DNA of 64,000 nt from Dictyostelium discoideum (taxonomy: Eukaryota). Shown here piece by piece: positions 41,911 through 45,576 of this stretch; position 1 is the first letter of the stretch, and every line of letters begins with the position of its first letter. The DNA lies in contig CM000153.2 of assembly GCA_000004695.1 (NCBI GenBank), positions 896,001-960,000 on the forward strand, written 5' to 3'. Under the pieces are notes generated by a model. That model saw only the letters and a program-made list of their open reading frames with translations. It was not told where the DNA came from and ran no database searches. The position numbers and the translations under genes are program-made.

Positions 41911-42345
41911 GACCCGGAAGGGCAGGAAAAAAAGTAAGGTCAAAATTCAACATCTCGCCAATTTAAGGCTCATTTAGTATTGTATTAAAAAAACAAAACT
42001 AACTTTTATACTATCCATTCTTATTTTATATTTAATTTATAGGGTTTAGCAATTTCCTTCTTCAATGAAAAGAATAAACCAGTAGGTGTTTAACTTTTGA
42101 AATTAATGAAAGCATCAAATCAAGATATTCCAGATTGGTTTGAAAAGATGGTACATAACCTTCGTATGTCTAATGGTCCATCAAATTCAAAATCAAAAAG
42201 TCTATTCAACAATAGTCATCACAATGGAGATGATAACCGTGGTGGTTATGGTGGATTTTTATTTGAGGGCCAACAAGGTCCCTAAAATGATGGATTTTAA
42301 TCTAAAAAGCACTTAATTTTTTTCTTAGTCTTCCTTTCCTAATAT
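41911..42345 (+). pseudogene. Inverted partial duplicate of the ddx3 3' end (penultimate-exon end + intron + truncated last exon), terminated by an inverted copy of the exon/intron junction
   Basis: 41911-41941 GGAAGACCCGGAAGGGCAGGAAAAAAAGTAAG matches ..GRTGRAGKK|GTAAG of the real gene. 42063-42275 encodes [49 protein letters not shown]..., with an in-frame stop. 42285-42345 is the reverse complement of 43130-43190 and matches the real junction at 43745-43805 in the same orientation. Confidence 0.7.
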
Positions 42346-43092
42346 TTTTTTTTTTTTTATAAAGATAAAAAATAAAAAGGGTGAGATTTACAAAAAAAAA
42401 AAAATACCAGATTTTGTCATCTTTTTTTTCTTTTTTTTTTTTTTTTTTTTTTTTTCAAAATTTTGTCACATTTTTTTTCATAATTATAATTTCACACTTT
42501 TTTTCAATCTCTTTTTTTATATCTTTTTTTTTGTATTAAATACATCAATATTACCGCCACACCAATGAAAACTCCAACATTCTCTTCATCTTTTAATTTA
42601 TCCTTATAACAATTTTTTTTTATTTATTTTTCTTAGTGTTTTATCTTTTTTTATTTTTTATTATTTTTTATAATATTTAAATCAAATAAATTATTTAATC
42701 TTTTTTTGAATTAATTTAAAAAAAAAAAAACAACCCACATCCAAAATTTGAAATTAAAAAAAAATAAACCAATTCAACCAAATCAATTTTTTTTTTTCAA
42801 TATCCTTTTTAATTGAAATTTATTATTCATAATTAATTATGAAAAAAAAAGGACTTGAAATTTTTTACATTGATCTTGATTTTTCAACCGAAATTTTTGG
42901 ACTTCTGCTTTCTTTGTATTTTAAAAATTCTTATACTTTTTCACTAATCCTTTCTCCAATTTTTTGATATCTATGGAAGGTATTATTTGATTTTTCATTA
43001 AAATTTGGTAAGAAAATGATTGATACTGATTGAAAACGTAATTGTAAGTAGATTAAATGTGAATGTTGATCTTTGAGCTTCCTAATTTTTGT

Positions 43093-43124
<32 letters not shown>

Positions 43125-43127
<3 letters not shown>

Positions 43128-43205
43128 GGAAGAGCAGGAAAAAAATTAAGTGCTTTTTAGATAAAATTCCATCATTTTAGGGCCTAGTTAGCCCTCTAAT
43201 AAAAA
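43125..43205 (+). repeat. Inverted copy of the ddx3 exon/intron junction (GRAGKK + intron start), lying immediately beyond the ddx3 3' UTR
   Basis: GGAAGAGCAGGAAAAAAATTAAGTGCTTTTTAGATAAAATTCCATCATTTTAGGGCCTAGTTAGCCCTCT is the reverse complement of 43735-43805. Confidence 0.7.
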
Positions 43206-43304
43206 TCAAATACAAAAGATACATATGAGAAAATGATTTTAATTCAATATTGAATTAAAATGGATTTATTATTTTTTATTAAACGAATGACATGAGGTGA
43301 ATGT

Positions 43305-45576
43305 TTAATTATATGAACCACCATTGTTGCTAAAGTATGGGTGATGCATTGAGTAATCTGATTTATCTTCTCTTCTATCATTACGGTTGTTACTGTAACC
43401 TCCATTACCACCACCACCACCACCATAACCACCACGGTTATCATCTCTATTGTGATGACTATTGTAAGATTTGTTGAATGGACTATTTGATTTTGAGTTT
43501 GATGGACCTTTAGACATACGGAGATTGTGTACCATCTTTTCAAACCAATCTGGAATATCTTGATTTGAAGCTTTCATTAATTTCAAAAGTTCAGCACCAA
43601 CTGGTTTATTCTTTTCATTGAAGAAGGAAATTGCTAAACCCTATAGTTGTAAACATAAAATAAGTAAGGAAATATACAAATTAAGAAAGGAAAATAAAAA
43701 GGTTAGTAAAGGTTTTTAAAAGAGGGCTAAATAGGCCCTAAAATGATGAGATTTTAATCTAAAAAGCACTTACTTTTTTTCCTGCTCTTCCGGTTCTACC
43801 AATACGATGAACGTAGATATGTATGTCGGTAGGCAAGTCGAAATTGATAACCAAATTAACATTACCGATGTGGAGACCTCTTGATGCAATATCAGTTGCT
43901 ACTAAGAATGGAGTTGCAAAAGAACGGAAAGATTGAAGTGCATTTTCTCTTTCTGGTTGAGTTAAATCACCATGAATACAGGTAGTTGGGAAATTTCTTT
44001 GATTTAAAAAGTAGGTAAGAGTATCACAAGAACGTTTAGTTTCAACGAAAATGAGACAAAGACCATCAGATTTCAAACCACTAAGATAATCTAACAAGTA
44101 ACTGTTTTTATCCTCTTCAACTACGTATTCAATTCTTTGTGTGATATTTTGAGTGGTACCAACAACACCAACTTTTAAGAAGATGTAATTGTAAAGGAAA
44201 TCAGCTGCAAGATTTTGAATTTGTTTTGGGAATGTAGCAGAAAACATAAGAGTTTGACGATCTCTACAACCTGGCATATCAAATTCAGAGATGATTTGAC
44301 GAATTTGTGGTTCAAAACCCATATCTAACATACGATCAGCTTCATCCAAAACCAAGTATTTAATTTTTGAAAGTGAAACACGACCACGCATTAAGAGATC
44401 AACGAGACGACCAGTTGTTGCTACCAAGATATCACAACCTCTATCTAATTCATTGATTTGATGGAAAACTTCTGCACCACCATAGATTACGACCGATGAT
44501 ACTGGTGAACCATAAGAGAATTTGTTTGCCTCATCAAAGATTTGTTGAGCCAATTCACGAGTTGGTGCGAGTACTAATGCACGTGGACAAGCAGCTCTTG
44601 GAACACCTGGTTTATAGGCTGGTGGAGCTTCTGGTGCTCCATCTAATAAAATACCGGAAATGATTGGGAATAAGAAAGCAGCGGTTTTACCTGAACCAGT
44701 TTGAGCACAAGCCATTAAATCACGATTTTTCAAAATGATTGGAAGTGCAGATTTTTGAACTGGAGTTGGTTTGGTGTATTTGGCATGTTTAATATTACCC
44801 AATAAAACATCACCCAAATCAACATCGGCAAATGAATTCAATGGAGCACAAATATGTTCACTGGTTTCAATGGAGATATCATCATCGTCGTAAGCATTGA
44901 AATCGATACCAATGTTGTCATCATTCTTTTTGAAGATTTCTTCGGCTTTGTGTTCTTCGAGATCAATGAATTCTCTTTTCATTTCTGGATGATTTCTTGA
45001 ATCTCTAAAGTTTGACCATCTATCGTAGTAACGATCATTTTTATTGGCTGGTTTACCAAAACTACTGCCACTTCCGCCTCTATTACCATAACCACCTTGA
45101 TTACCACCACGAGAGAATGAATTATTTGGTGAATAAGAGTAACTATTACCTCTTGGTGGGCCTTGTTCTCTTGGACCATTATCCCAACCACCGCTACCAC
45201 TACTACTACCACCACCATTACTATTATTGTTTCTTGAGAATGATGGACTTTTGTAGTTATCTCTACTGTTGTTGTTGTTATTAGAGTTATTTTCCCTAAA
45301 ATTGTTACCACCTCTGTAACCATCGTCACGACGGTCACGATTGAATGGTGAATCACGATTATCACGGTCAGATGGTGATGGATAATCGTCTCTTGATGAA
45401 CCTGAACTATTATTCATCTTGTTTCTACGAGATGGTGGGACATATGGTTCACTAGTTTGTGTTGTTGTTGTTGTTGTGTTGTTGTTTGATGAAGTTGACG
45501 AACTCTTATCAGAGATGGTTAACCCTGAGATATTCAGGGTAGTTCCATCGTTATCTTTGTTATTTCCAATTGGCAT
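43305..45576 (-). CDS. ddx3: ATP-dependent DEAD-box RNA helicase, DDX3/Ded1/PL10 subfamily, 712 aa; exons 43774..45576 and 43305..43640
   Basis: Helicase motifs present: [11 protein letters not shown] (motif I), PTRELA, DEAD in [26 protein letters not shown]. The N-terminus is rich in RGG/Asn. The intron runs GTAAGT...CTATAG (133 nt), phase 0. The C-terminal exon ends with a GGYGGGGGG tail. Confidence 0.85.

What the first reader, a model, noticed from the sequence alone, without database searches (positions are those of the whole stretch)
41911..43805. Inverted, internally palindromic partial duplication of the ddx3 3' end
The exon/intron junction of ddx3 (..GRTGRAGKK|GTAAGTGCTTTTTAGAT...) is present three times.
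- Once in the real gene (43735-43805, minus strand).
- Once inverted just beyond the gene's own 3' UTR (43125-43205).
- Once at 42285-42345, abutting a pseudo-copy of the last exon (42063-42275). That pseudo-copy is preceded by a further, more diverged junction + intron copy (41911-42062).

The arrangement is J+ E+ J- ...800 bp... J+ E- J-. The two arms are therefore reverse complements of each other, and each arm is itself bounded by inverted junction copies.

The pseudo last exon carries a premature stop (GAELL to GV*LL). It is truncated in the GGYGG tail, where it is fused to the inverted junction.

This resembles a foldback or breakage-fusion style rearrangement, or a template switch during replication, centred on a helicase gene 3' end. 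Long inverted repeats like this could also generate antisense or hairpin RNA against ddx3.
Basis: seen in the sequence. Interest (0 to 1): 0.65.

Follow-up and report, generated by a model that had tools for sequence, protein, structure and literature searches.

The report
Nested inverted duplication of ddx3 tail
The end of the Dictyostelium discoideum ddx3 helicase gene really is copied backwards next to itself, but this is most likely a dead gene fragment left by old local duplications and copy-correction in a rearrangement-prone spot, with no sign that it works as a regulatory device.

Summary
The window is D. discoideum AX4; ddx3 (DDB_G0283661) lies on the minus strand with one intron after motif VI.

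There are four copies of the exon/intron junction "J", two of the intron and two of the last exon "E". 745 bp ... J+ E- I- J-.

An independent Nanopore-based assembly carries the same structure, so it is not an assembly chimera.

Seven related genomes date it:
- The intron is a recent gain, found only in the citrinum and discoideum clades.
- The inverted J copy downstream of ddx3 (Jinv) is present in all five discoideum-clade genomes.
- The inverted pseudo-arm is shared with a wild isolate: same fusion junction, three shared derived substitutions. It is probably shared with a cryptic sister species too.
- Another lineage has a tandem duplication of the segment between J and Jinv instead.

The "more diverged" outer intron copy is 89% identical to the real intron of sister isolates. 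AX4's own intron belongs to a different haplotype, which points to gene conversion among the copies.

The pseudo-exon is disabled, and J:Jinv complementarity is not conserved.

Verdict: an old unprocessed pseudogene fragment within nested inverted repeats, at a structural-variation hotspot. Function is unlikely, and hairpin RNA remains untested.

The parts
43774..45576 (-). ddx3 exon 1 (601 codons, ending ...[12 protein letters not shown])
   Evidence: ORF list and spliced translation. Pfam DEAD and Helicase_C on the called gene. Named DDB_G0283661 / Q54QS3.
43641..43773 (-). The only ddx3 intron (133 nt, GTAAGT...TATAG), 'alpha' haplotype
   Evidence: There is no intron at this site in D. purpureum or D. 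firmibasis. The gene is intronless in T. lacteum and P. violaceum.
43305..43640 (-). ddx3 last exon E (111 codons plus stop)
43713..43805 (-). Real junction element J (last ~30 nt of exon 1 plus first ~60 nt of the intron, including the 5' splice site)
43236..43261 (.). Perfect 26-nt palindrome TTTTAATTCAATATTGAATTAAAA in the 3' UTR, just after two AATAAA signals
   Evidence: Self-hit at 100% over 26 nt. Retained in L002, L003 and L007.
43126..43207 (+). Jinv: inverted copy of J about 100 nt beyond the stop codon, preceded by an A30 run (43095-43125). Its GT is changed to TT.
   Evidence: 91% over 79 nt to the real J. Orthologous but degenerate copies occur in L002, L003 and L007; an intact copy occurs in L006.
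42359..43094 (.). Unique AT-rich spacer between the two arms. Only 42498-42708 is shared with isolate L007.
   Evidence: The 54-aa ORF has no Pfam hit.
42255..42358 (-). Inner-left J (a copy of Jinv in the left arm, also TT instead of GT) plus T-run, fused directly to E' at GGTGG|ATTTTT
   Evidence: 89% to Jinv and 85% to the real J. The same fusion junction is present in L007.
42043..42254 (+). E': pseudo last exon (first two thirds), with a stop codon, a 9-bp deletion and truncation in the GGYGG tract
   Evidence: 94% to E. 12 substitutions, 6 synonymous and 6 nonsynonymous including GAA->TAA. 96% to the L007 pseudo-copy, with three shared derived substitutions.
41934..42042 (+). I': intron copy (109 nt) of the 'beta' haplotype
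   Evidence: 66% to the AX4 real intron, but 89% to the real introns of L003 and L007 and 84-87% to those of L002.
41903..41933 (+). J' exon part: copy of the last ~30 nt of exon 1 (..IGRPGRAGKK), the outer end of the left arm
   Evidence: The outer boundary coincides within a few bases with that of the L002 arm.

Best explanation
This is a non-functional relic: an unprocessed (intron-containing) pseudogene fragment of the ddx3 3' end. It sits inside nested inverted repeats in the convergent intergenic region between ddx3 and the 837-aa gene.

It was built stepwise in the D. discoideum clade:
1. An intron was gained after motif VI in the common ancestor of the citrinum and discoideum clades.
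2. About 90 nt spanning the exon/intron junction (J) was copied in inverted orientation to about 100 nt beyond the stop codon (Jinv). This happened at the base of the discoideum clade.
3. The whole unit J-intron-E-UTR-Jinv (about 700 bp) was then duplicated in inverted orientation further downstream. The copy lost about 215 bp (the end of E plus the UTR), which fused E' to its own Jinv copy, the inner-left J. It later acquired a stop codon and a 9-bp deletion.
4. Short-tract gene conversion among the J, Jinv and intron copies produced the present mosaic. AX4's real J, Jinv and inner-left J are alike, while the outer-left copy keeps the intron type that sister isolates carry in their real gene.

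Steps 1-3 rest on presence, absence and shared junctions, and are shown directly. Two things are inferred: the molecular mechanism of each duplication (replication template switching, or repair at AT-rich microhomology) and the direction of the conversions.

The repeats themselves probably make the site fragile, which would explain the different rearrangements seen in every lineage examined.
For: Structure and significance:
- establish the repeats and their significance.
- An independent long-read assembly is identical apart from homopolymer lengths. The assemblies are described in PMC12745789.

Disabled copy:
- E' has a stop codon, a 9-bp deletion and a truncation. It lacks all of exon 1 apart from its last ~30 nt.
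- No gene is called there in the annotated assembly.
- The pseudo-ORF is not on record anywhere.

Ancestral state:
- D. firmibasis is collinear with AX4, with about 0.7 kb between ddx3 and the neighbouring gene. It has no arm, no Jinv and no intron at this site.

Stepwise origin:
- Jinv is present in L002, L003, L006, L007 and AX4.
- L006 has Jinv but no inverted arm.
- The AX4 and L007 pseudo-copies share the exact J|GGYGG fusion and three derived substitutions.
- The L002 arm has the same outer boundary.

Gene conversion:
- The discordance with the species tree is confined to about 200 nt of J plus intron and about 140 nt of Jinv. The flanking exons are 98-99% identical between AX4 and L007.
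- The L002 arm is 97% identical to its own parent across intron and exon.
- Within-genome J:Jinv identity (91% in AX4, 88% in L006) exceeds the between-genome identity of the orthologous AX4 and L006 introns, 78%.

No conserved function:
- J:Jinv complementarity is absent in L002, L003 and L007.
- The spacer is not conserved.
- There is no Rfam match.

Hotspot:
- L006 has a tandem duplication of the segment between J and Jinv.
- L007 and L003 have a ~5 kb insertion, and L007 has lost part of its arm.
- L002 has about 3 kb between the arms.
- D. citrinum has an inversion breakpoint in the same intergenic region.
Against: - No expression or small-RNA data could be consulted, so a function for AX4 specifically cannot be excluded.
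- The history is not uniquely resolved. The alpha/beta intron pattern can also be explained by an old polymorphism sorted differently among lineages, or by arm-to-gene conversion in the other lineages.
- The L002 arm could be an independent duplication. It lacks the derived substitutions of the AX4 and L007 pseudo-copies, and its inner end differs.
- The 6:6 synonymous to nonsynonymous ratio in E' is too small a sample to prove neutrality.
- High J:Jinv identity in two separate lineages (AX4 and L006) would also be expected under selection for pairing.
- Whether J-like sequence occurs elsewhere in the genome could not be checked. Only the 64-kb window and 10 loci were searched.
Confidence: 0.75

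Rival explanations
1. Hairpin-RNA or proto-miRNA locus. A ddx3 transcript that reads through about 1.4 kb past its poly(A) site would contain E followed by antisense E'. It would fold into a ~210-bp, 94% matched stem, or a ~80-bp J:Jinv stem. Dicer would process this into siRNAs that down-regulate ddx3, following the plant 'inverted duplication of the target gene' route to new small-RNA genes.
For: - The inverted arms are close together, 745 bp apart.
- J..Jinv RNA is predicted to fold far better than shuffled sequence: -193 kcal/mol, z = -6.2.
- D. discoideum has an RNAi and miRNA system (general knowledge; not tested here).
Against: - Two AATAAA signals lie 25-40 nt after the stop codon. Canonical mRNAs should therefore end before Jinv (sequence).
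- The left arm is partly deleted in L007 and absent in L006. The arms are about 3 kb apart in L002.
- The spacer is not conserved.
- No known RNA family matches.
- No literature links ddx3 to small RNAs.
Confidence: 0.07
2. Helicase-activity sensor. In nascent or read-through pre-mRNA, Jinv pairs with J. This buries the 5' splice site of the last intron in a ~80-bp duplex. Ddx3, or another helicase, must unwind the duplex for productive splicing, giving feedback control. The closest parallels are the plant DEAD motif in DRH1 and the intron-mediated autoregulation of yeast DBP2.
For: - The duplex covers the 5' splice site exactly. It is strong in AX4 (79 nt, 91%) and in L006 (80 nt, 88%).
- Within-genome similarity exceeds between-genome similarity, as co-evolution would produce.
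- There is a precedent for a structured RNA occluding a splice site in a DEAD-box helicase gene: bioRxiv 10.64898/2026.01.23.701338.
Against: - Pairing is lost in L002, L003 and L007. Their genes are otherwise intact, with 97-98% protein identity.
- Jinv lies beyond the predicted poly(A) site.
- Gene conversion explains the same similarity pattern without selection.
- In L006 the similarity includes a GT->TT change at the real 5' splice site. This looks like collateral damage from conversion, not regulation.
- The plant-helicase preprint itself notes that DEAD-box helicases are reported to unwind efficiently only about 10-15 bp.
Confidence: 0.05
3. Recurrent, independent duplications driven by the J/Jinv inverted repeat. 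The AX4/L007 arm, the L002 arm and the L006 tandem copy would each have arisen separately, because a J:Jinv cruciform stalls replication and provokes template switches at its base.
For: - The L002 arm is 97% identical to its own parent and lacks the derived changes of the AX4 and L007 pseudo-copies.
- The L006 tandem duplication starts 22 nt after J and ends 4 nt before Jinv.
- Every lineage shows a different rearrangement.
Against: - The outer boundary of the L002 and AX4 arms coincides within a few bases, and the orientation and position relative to the neighbouring gene are the same. This favours one origin followed by homogenisation.
- The L006 junction sits in a simple TTTTTATT microhomology, which needs no cruciform.
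- D. citrinum, which has a breakpoint here, has no J/Jinv.
Confidence: 0.12
4. Assembly artefact, or a terminal foldback / breakage-fusion-bridge product.
For: Palindromic structures in AT-rich DNA are a classic source of misassembly.
Against: - The structure is identical in an independent Nanopore plus Illumina assembly.
- Orthologous pieces occur in wild isolates.
- The arms are 6-34% diverged, not identical.
- Both flanking genes are retained in the ancestral order.
Confidence: 0.01

Closest known systems
Unprocessed (duplicated) pseudogene fragment / inverted segmental duplication
   Same: The copy retains the intron and the exon/intron boundary, lacks the 5' part of the gene, and carries a stop codon, a deletion and a truncation. 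It lies next to its parent in inverted orientation.
   Different: The copy is nested: each arm is itself bounded by inverted copies of a ~90-nt junction element. The copies show mosaic similarity, implying repeated short-tract gene conversion that reaches into the functional gene's intron.
Inverted-duplication origin of plant miRNA / hpRNA genes (Allen et al. 2004 model; update in PMC3237417, seen)
   Same: An inverted duplicate of part of a protein-coding gene lies close to that gene. A transcript crossing both arms could fold back on itself.
   Different: There is no evidence of transcription across the arms or of small RNAs. The arms are variably deleted among close relatives. The duplicate sits beside the parent gene, not at a separate locus.
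Structured-RNA autoregulation of DEAD-box helicase genes (plant DEAD motif in DRH1/RH46, bioRxiv 10.64898/2026.01.23.701338; yeast DBP2 intron, recalled from memory)
   Same: A helicase gene whose pre-mRNA could form a duplex covering a splice site of an intron near the 3' end of the helicase core.
   Different: The plant element is a compact ~20-bp hairpin inside the intron, conserved across land plants with experimental compensatory mutants. Here the 'stem' is an ~80-bp long-range repeat whose 3' half lies beyond the poly(A) signals. It is not conserved even within the species complex.
Concerted evolution of inverted repeats by gene conversion (as in palindrome arms of sex chromosomes and other inverted duplicates; general knowledge)
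   Same: Within-genome identity of J and Jinv (88-91%) is higher than identity between orthologous copies in different lineages. The discordant tracts are short (100-200 nt).
   Different: The repeats are tiny (~80 nt). One partner includes a functional 5' splice site, and in one lineage (L006) that site appears to have been overwritten (GT->TT).

Membership tests
Unprocessed pseudogene fragment | Homology to a parent gene that includes intron sequence | tested here: met
   The left arm aligns to J, intron and E of ddx3. The intron copy is 109 nt with GT..AG.
Unprocessed pseudogene fragment | Disabling lesions or incompleteness | tested here: met
   Stop codon GAA->TAA, 9-bp deletion, truncation at GGYGG, and only the last ~30 nt of exon 1 present.
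Unprocessed pseudogene fragment | No evidence of being an expressed or annotated gene | tested here: inconclusive
   No gene is called there in GCA_054883475.1, and the ORF is not on record. Transcription was not testable.
Foldback / breakage-fusion-bridge inverted duplication | Loss of sequence distal to the fold-back point, or disruption of flanking synteny | tested here: not met
   ddx3 and the 837-aa gene remain adjacent in the ancestral order and orientation, as in D. firmibasis.
Foldback / breakage-fusion-bridge inverted duplication | Single event giving two arms of equal age | tested here: not met
   Jinv is present without the inverted arm in L006. Copy identities range from 66% to 94%.
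Replication template-switch (FoSTeS/MMBIR-type) duplication | Microhomology at breakpoint junctions | tested here: inconclusive
   The E'|J fusion GGTGG|ATTTTT shows at most 1-3 nt of microhomology. The L006 tandem junction lies in TTTTTATT. The AT-rich context makes this uninformative.
Hairpin-RNA / inverted-duplication small-RNA locus | Inverted arms able to form a long intramolecular duplex | tested here: met
   E/E' are 94% identical over 221 nt, inverted. The J..Jinv fold has z = -6.2.
Hairpin-RNA / inverted-duplication small-RNA locus | A transcript spanning both arms, and Dicer-dependent small RNAs | not testable with these tools
   No expression data were available. AATAAA signals precede Jinv.
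Helicase-sensing structured RNA at a splice site | Structure overlaps a splice site | tested here: met
   The predicted stem pairs 43713-43800 (including the GT at 43773-43772) with Jinv in AX4.
Helicase-sensing structured RNA at a splice site | Structure conserved among relatives, ideally with covariation | tested here: not met
   There is no significant J:Jinv complementarity in L002, L003 or L007. The L007 fold has z = +0.6.
Mobile element (MITE / foldback transposon) as the origin of J | Dispersed copies unrelated to the gene, with terminal inverted repeats and target-site duplications | tested here: inconclusive
   J contains ~30 nt of ddx3 coding sequence. It occurs only at this locus in the window and in the 10 loci held. 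The rest of the genome could not be searched.

The most novel reading that the evidence does not exclude
In AX4, and independently in the L006 lineage, the ~80-bp J:Jinv duplex is maintained because it sequesters the 5' splice site of a recently gained intron in read-through ddx3 pre-mRNA. The helicase gene would then sense cellular unwinding activity. Alternatively, the wider palindrome would feed Dicer with a ddx3-directed hairpin. Either way, this would be a young, lineage-specific autoregulatory device, caught at birth, in an amoebozoan.
Probability: 0.06. Interest if true: 0.7.

Novelty: new member of a known kind. Interest (0 to 1): 0.3.

Why it matters
Mostly this is a clean-up result. 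The striking palindrome is real and is not an artefact, but it is best read as a pseudogene relic.

It should be annotated as such. Anyone designing ddx3 3' knock-in, knock-out or RNAi constructs, or mapping short reads there, should bear it in mind: the J, E and intron copies will cross-map and can recombine.

It also has modest value for genome evolution. The locus is a compact, datable example of four things within one species complex:
- a recently gained intron;
- short inverted repeats arising beside a gene;
- short-tract gene conversion reaching into a functional intron, apparently overwriting a 5' splice site in one lineage;
- a small intergenic region that has rearranged differently in every lineage sampled.

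If the low-probability regulatory reading were true, it would be the first structured-RNA or hairpin autoregulation of a DDX3-type helicase in Amoebozoa.

Tried and rejected
- **Rfam.** A scan of 41000-46000 at E<=1, and of the whole window at gathering score, found nothing at the locus. The ATGATGA in J is therefore not a recognised snoRNA box.
- **tRNA scan.** The window and L002-L005 have no tRNA genes, so there is no tRNA gene for a tRNA-targeted retroelement to explain the insertions.
- **Spliced ddx3 protein look-up.** It was worked around through the neighbouring single-exon gene and through homologues.
- **Spacer origin.** The 745-bp spacer matches nothing in relatives except 211 nt in L007, and nothing else in the window. 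Its 54-aa ORF and the large ORF of the L003/L007 insertion have no Pfam domain.
- **Staggered-break inversion scar.** I considered that the arm marks the D. citrinum inversion of the PPIase-ddx3 block. I rejected this for three reasons. The duplicate lies on the wrong side for that model. D. firmibasis and D. purpureum show that the AX4 order is ancestral. D. citrinum has no duplicate.
- **Jinv overwriting only the 5' part of the AX4 intron.** This was my first idea and I revised it. The whole intron, including its 3' half, which is not part of the J repeat, groups with L006. The direction and number of conversions therefore remain open.
- **Literature.** Searches for ddx3 in Dictyostelium, for DDB_G0283661, and for Dictyostelium hairpin or small-RNA loci found nothing about this locus.
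- **Pseudo-ORF look-up.** The search in public assemblies was negative.
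Full report
**Identity of the region**

The window is 21% G+C and comes from Dictyostelium discoideum. The minus-strand gene at 45576-43305 has two exons (45576..43774 and 43640..43305) separated by a 133-nt GT..AG intron. 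This intron lies directly after helicase motif VI (..[12 protein letters not shown]|GLAISFF..). The 712-aa product is in the same 90% cluster as AX4 DDB_G0283661 / Q54QS3, 'probable ATP-dependent RNA helicase ddx3', also 712 aa.

**Check of the observation**

Read on the + strand, the order is:
- J' (41903-41933), the last ~30 nt of exon 1;
- I' (41934-42042), an intron copy;
- E' (42043-42254), the first two thirds of the last exon;
- inner-left J in the opposite orientation (42255-42343), plus a T-run to 42358;
- a unique spacer (42359-43094);
- an A-run, then Jinv (43126-43207);
- about 100 nt of 3' flank;
- the real last exon, intron and J (43305-43805) on the minus strand.

With gaps allowed, the identities are as follows. 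The real J and Jinv are 91% identical over 79 nt. Jinv and the inner-left J are 89% identical. The real J and the inner-left J are 85% identical. E and E' are 94% identical over 221 nt.

These matches are far beyond chance. The expected number of pattern matches is 0, and the alignment scores 121 against a shuffle maximum of 30.

It ends in the GGYGG tract, where it is fused to the inner-left J.

**Not an artefact**

The neighbouring 837-aa single-exon gene led to a 5.58-Mb chromosome-scale contig of a different assembly, GCA_054883475.1. Over 22.5 kb that contig differs from the window by 8 mismatches and 17 gaps. Over 41800-43900 it differs only in the length of two homopolymer runs. The assemblies of this series are de novo Nanopore plus Illumina assemblies (PMC12745789).

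**Comparative series**

Homologues of ddx3 and their cluster members gave loci from these genomes:
- two D. cf. discoideum genomes (L002, L006);
- two wild D. discoideum isolates (L003, L007);
- D. citrinum (L004), D. firmibasis (L008) and D. purpureum (L005);
- T. lacteum (L009) and P. violaceum (L010).

A neighbour-joining tree of 1.29 kb of exon 1 gives ((((L007,L003),AX4),L002),L006), followed by D. citrinum, D. firmibasis and D. purpureum.

**Ancestral state**

D. firmibasis is collinear with the window across UFL1, PPIase, ddx3, the 837-aa gene and the 1471-aa gene. It has only about 0.7 kb between ddx3 and the 837-aa gene. It has no second copy of any ddx3 sequence and no intron at this position.

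D. purpureum also lacks the intron here. In T. lacteum and P. violaceum the gene is intronless.

The intron is therefore a recent gain in the common ancestor of the D. citrinum and D. discoideum clades. The D. citrinum intron is 94 nt and is recognisably homologous in its 3' half.

**Step 1: Jinv**

Downstream of the stop codon, all five discoideum-clade genomes align with the window through the position of Jinv. An inverted J-like segment is recognisable in each of them. D. citrinum and D. firmibasis have none.

Jinv must post-date the intron, because it contains both exon and intron sequence.

**Step 2: the inverted arm**

As a whole, the left arm is the reverse complement of the unit J-I-E-UTR-Jinv. 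It has about 215 bp missing (the end of E plus the UTR), which is why an inverted J abuts E'.

L007 carries the same inner-left J fused to E' at exactly the same point. It also has 211 nt of the AX4 spacer. Its E' shares three derived substitutions with the AX4 E' that no real exon has, at E positions 144, 156 and 161. The arm therefore predates the split between AX4 and L007.

L007 has since lost the outer part of the arm, and has about 5 kb inserted between Jinv and the spacer.

L002 has an inverted J-I-E arm with the same outer boundary, in the same orientation and in the same place relative to the 837-aa gene. Its arm lies about 3 kb from ddx3, extends further into E, and is 97% identical to its own parent. 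This could be the same arm homogenised by gene conversion, or a second origin.

L006 has no inverted arm. Instead it has a 92%-identical tandem duplication of the ~525-nt segment lying between J and Jinv, joined at a TTTTTATT microhomology.

D. citrinum has the PPIase-ddx3 block inverted, with one breakpoint in this same intergenic region.

Every lineage sampled is thus different at this spot.

**The 'more diverged' copy explained**

There are two intron types:
- Alpha: the AX4 real intron (133 nt) and the L006 real intron (140 nt), 78% identical to each other.
- Beta: the real introns of L002, L003 and L007 (112 nt), the AX4 arm intron (109 nt) and the L002 arm intron, 84-98% identical to each other.

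Alpha and beta are only 58-68% identical to each other.

A sliding comparison shows that the conflict with the species tree is confined to two tracts, 43800-43608 (J plus intron) and 43236-43100 (Jinv). In the adjacent exons AX4 and L007 are 98-99% identical.

The outer-left copy in AX4 has therefore not decayed faster. It preserves the intron type that its closest relatives still use, whereas AX4's functional intron is of the other type.

The alpha-type J sequence is also found at AX4 Jinv, at the AX4 inner-left J and at the L007 inner-left J.

Short discordant tracts, within-genome similarity that exceeds between-genome similarity, and the 97% arm-to-parent identity in L002 are together the signature of short-tract gene conversion among the copies.

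I could not fix the donor and recipient of each event. An old alpha/beta polymorphism sorted among lineages is an alternative explanation.

**Is it functional?**

Evidence against a conserved role:
- J:Jinv complementarity is strong in AX4 (79 nt, 91%) and L006 (80 nt, 88%). It is not above shuffled controls in L002, L003 or L007.
- The sense RNA from J to Jinv folds with z = -6.2 in AX4, but +0.6 in L007.
- Two AATAAA signals lie 25-40 nt after the stop codon, about 60 nt before Jinv.
- The spacer is not conserved.
- No Rfam family matches.
- No gene is annotated or on record for the pseudo-ORF.
- E' differs from E by 6 synonymous and 6 nonsynonymous changes, including a stop.

In L006 the real 5' splice site reads TT, like the Jinv copies, and the automatic gene model skips motif VI. 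This looks like damage from conversion, although RNA data would be needed to know how that strain splices.

A hairpin-siRNA role, or a helicase-sensor role analogous to the plant DEAD motif, cannot be excluded for AX4 without expression data. I rate the two together at well under 15%.

**Mechanism of origin**

A terminal foldback or breakage-fusion-bridge cycle is rejected. Flanking synteny is intact, and the structure arose in steps.

Replication template switching, or repair synthesis between AT-rich microhomologies, is plausible for both inverted copies and for the L006 tandem copy. However, the junctions are uninformative in 79% A+T DNA.

It is a reasonable inference, not shown here, that the J/Jinv and arm/arm inverted repeats promote secondary structures and ectopic pairing, and that this keeps the region unstable.

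**Verdict**

The feature is real, old and polymorphic among close relatives. It is best classed as an unprocessed pseudogene fragment within nested inverted repeats, shaped by gene conversion.

It is a new example of a well-known kind of feature. Its interest lies mainly in annotation and construct design, and in its value as a small natural case study of intron gain, inverted duplication and conversion.

Noticed in passing
window 60823-63644 (-): Cluster of four Dictyostelium Class I RNA genes (Rfam RF01414, 45-48 bits, above the gathering score). They sit inside a locally duplicated region (repeats at 60.8-64.0 kb).
   Followed up: no
window 43641-43773; L005, L008, L009, L010: The single ddx3 intron, after motif VI, is a recent gain. 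It is absent at this site in D. purpureum and D. firmibasis, and the gene is intronless in T. lacteum and P. violaceum. Conversely, D. purpureum has a ~90-nt gap (an intron) at about window 44977 that AX4 lacks.
   Followed up: partly
L006 9759-10998: In D. cf. discoideum (GCA_054859235.1) the real 5' splice site reads TTAAGT instead of GTAAGT, like the Jinv copies. The intron 3' part, last exon and UTR are tandemly duplicated (92%). The deposited gene model (778 aa) skips helicase motif VI. This could be real splice-site damage by gene conversion, non-canonical splicing or a base error.
   Followed up: partly
L004 (D. citrinum) 1-14179 vs window 38556-55354: The PPIase-ddx3 block (window 43305-48492) is inverted in D. 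citrinum relative to AX4, D. firmibasis and D. purpureum. The flanking 837-aa gene and UFL1 keep their orientation. One breakpoint falls in the same intergenic region as the duplication.
   Followed up: partly
window 43236-43261: Perfect 26-nt palindrome (TTTTAATTCAATATTGAATTAAAA) just after the AATAAA signals of ddx3. It is retained with small changes in L002, L003 and L007, and may be related to 3' end formation.
   Followed up: no
window 1486-11595 and 49065-49675: Tandem array of about four diverged copies (78-83%) of a ~1.3-1.8 kb unit. An inverted ~600-nt fragment of the same unit lies between PPIase and UFL1. The corresponding genes in L006 and L007 carry EF-hand domains.
   Followed up: no
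window 22156-25036 and 25817-28770: A ~3-kb direct duplication at 91% identity. This shows that local segmental duplication is common in this window.
   Followed up: no
L003 9175-13064, L007 10568-14462, L006 ~12000-13600: A ~4-5 kb segment lies between ddx3 and the pseudo-arm in the wild isolates and is absent from AX4 and D. firmibasis. It carries a large ORF (868 aa in L003; the gene model in L007 is 987 aa) with no Pfam domain. Parts of it occur in the opposite orientation in L006.
   Followed up: partly
window 48119-48341 and 48586-48806: 221-nt direct repeat (88%) at the 3' end of the PPIase/TPR gene. It is also seen at protein level in D. purpureum, so it is old. It could be an internal TPR repeat or a 3'-end duplication.
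   Followed up: no
L006 243-1907: A gene with a Phage_integrase (tyrosine recombinase) domain lies about 3 kb upstream of PPIase in this lineage only. It could be a DIRS-type retroelement.
   Followed up: no
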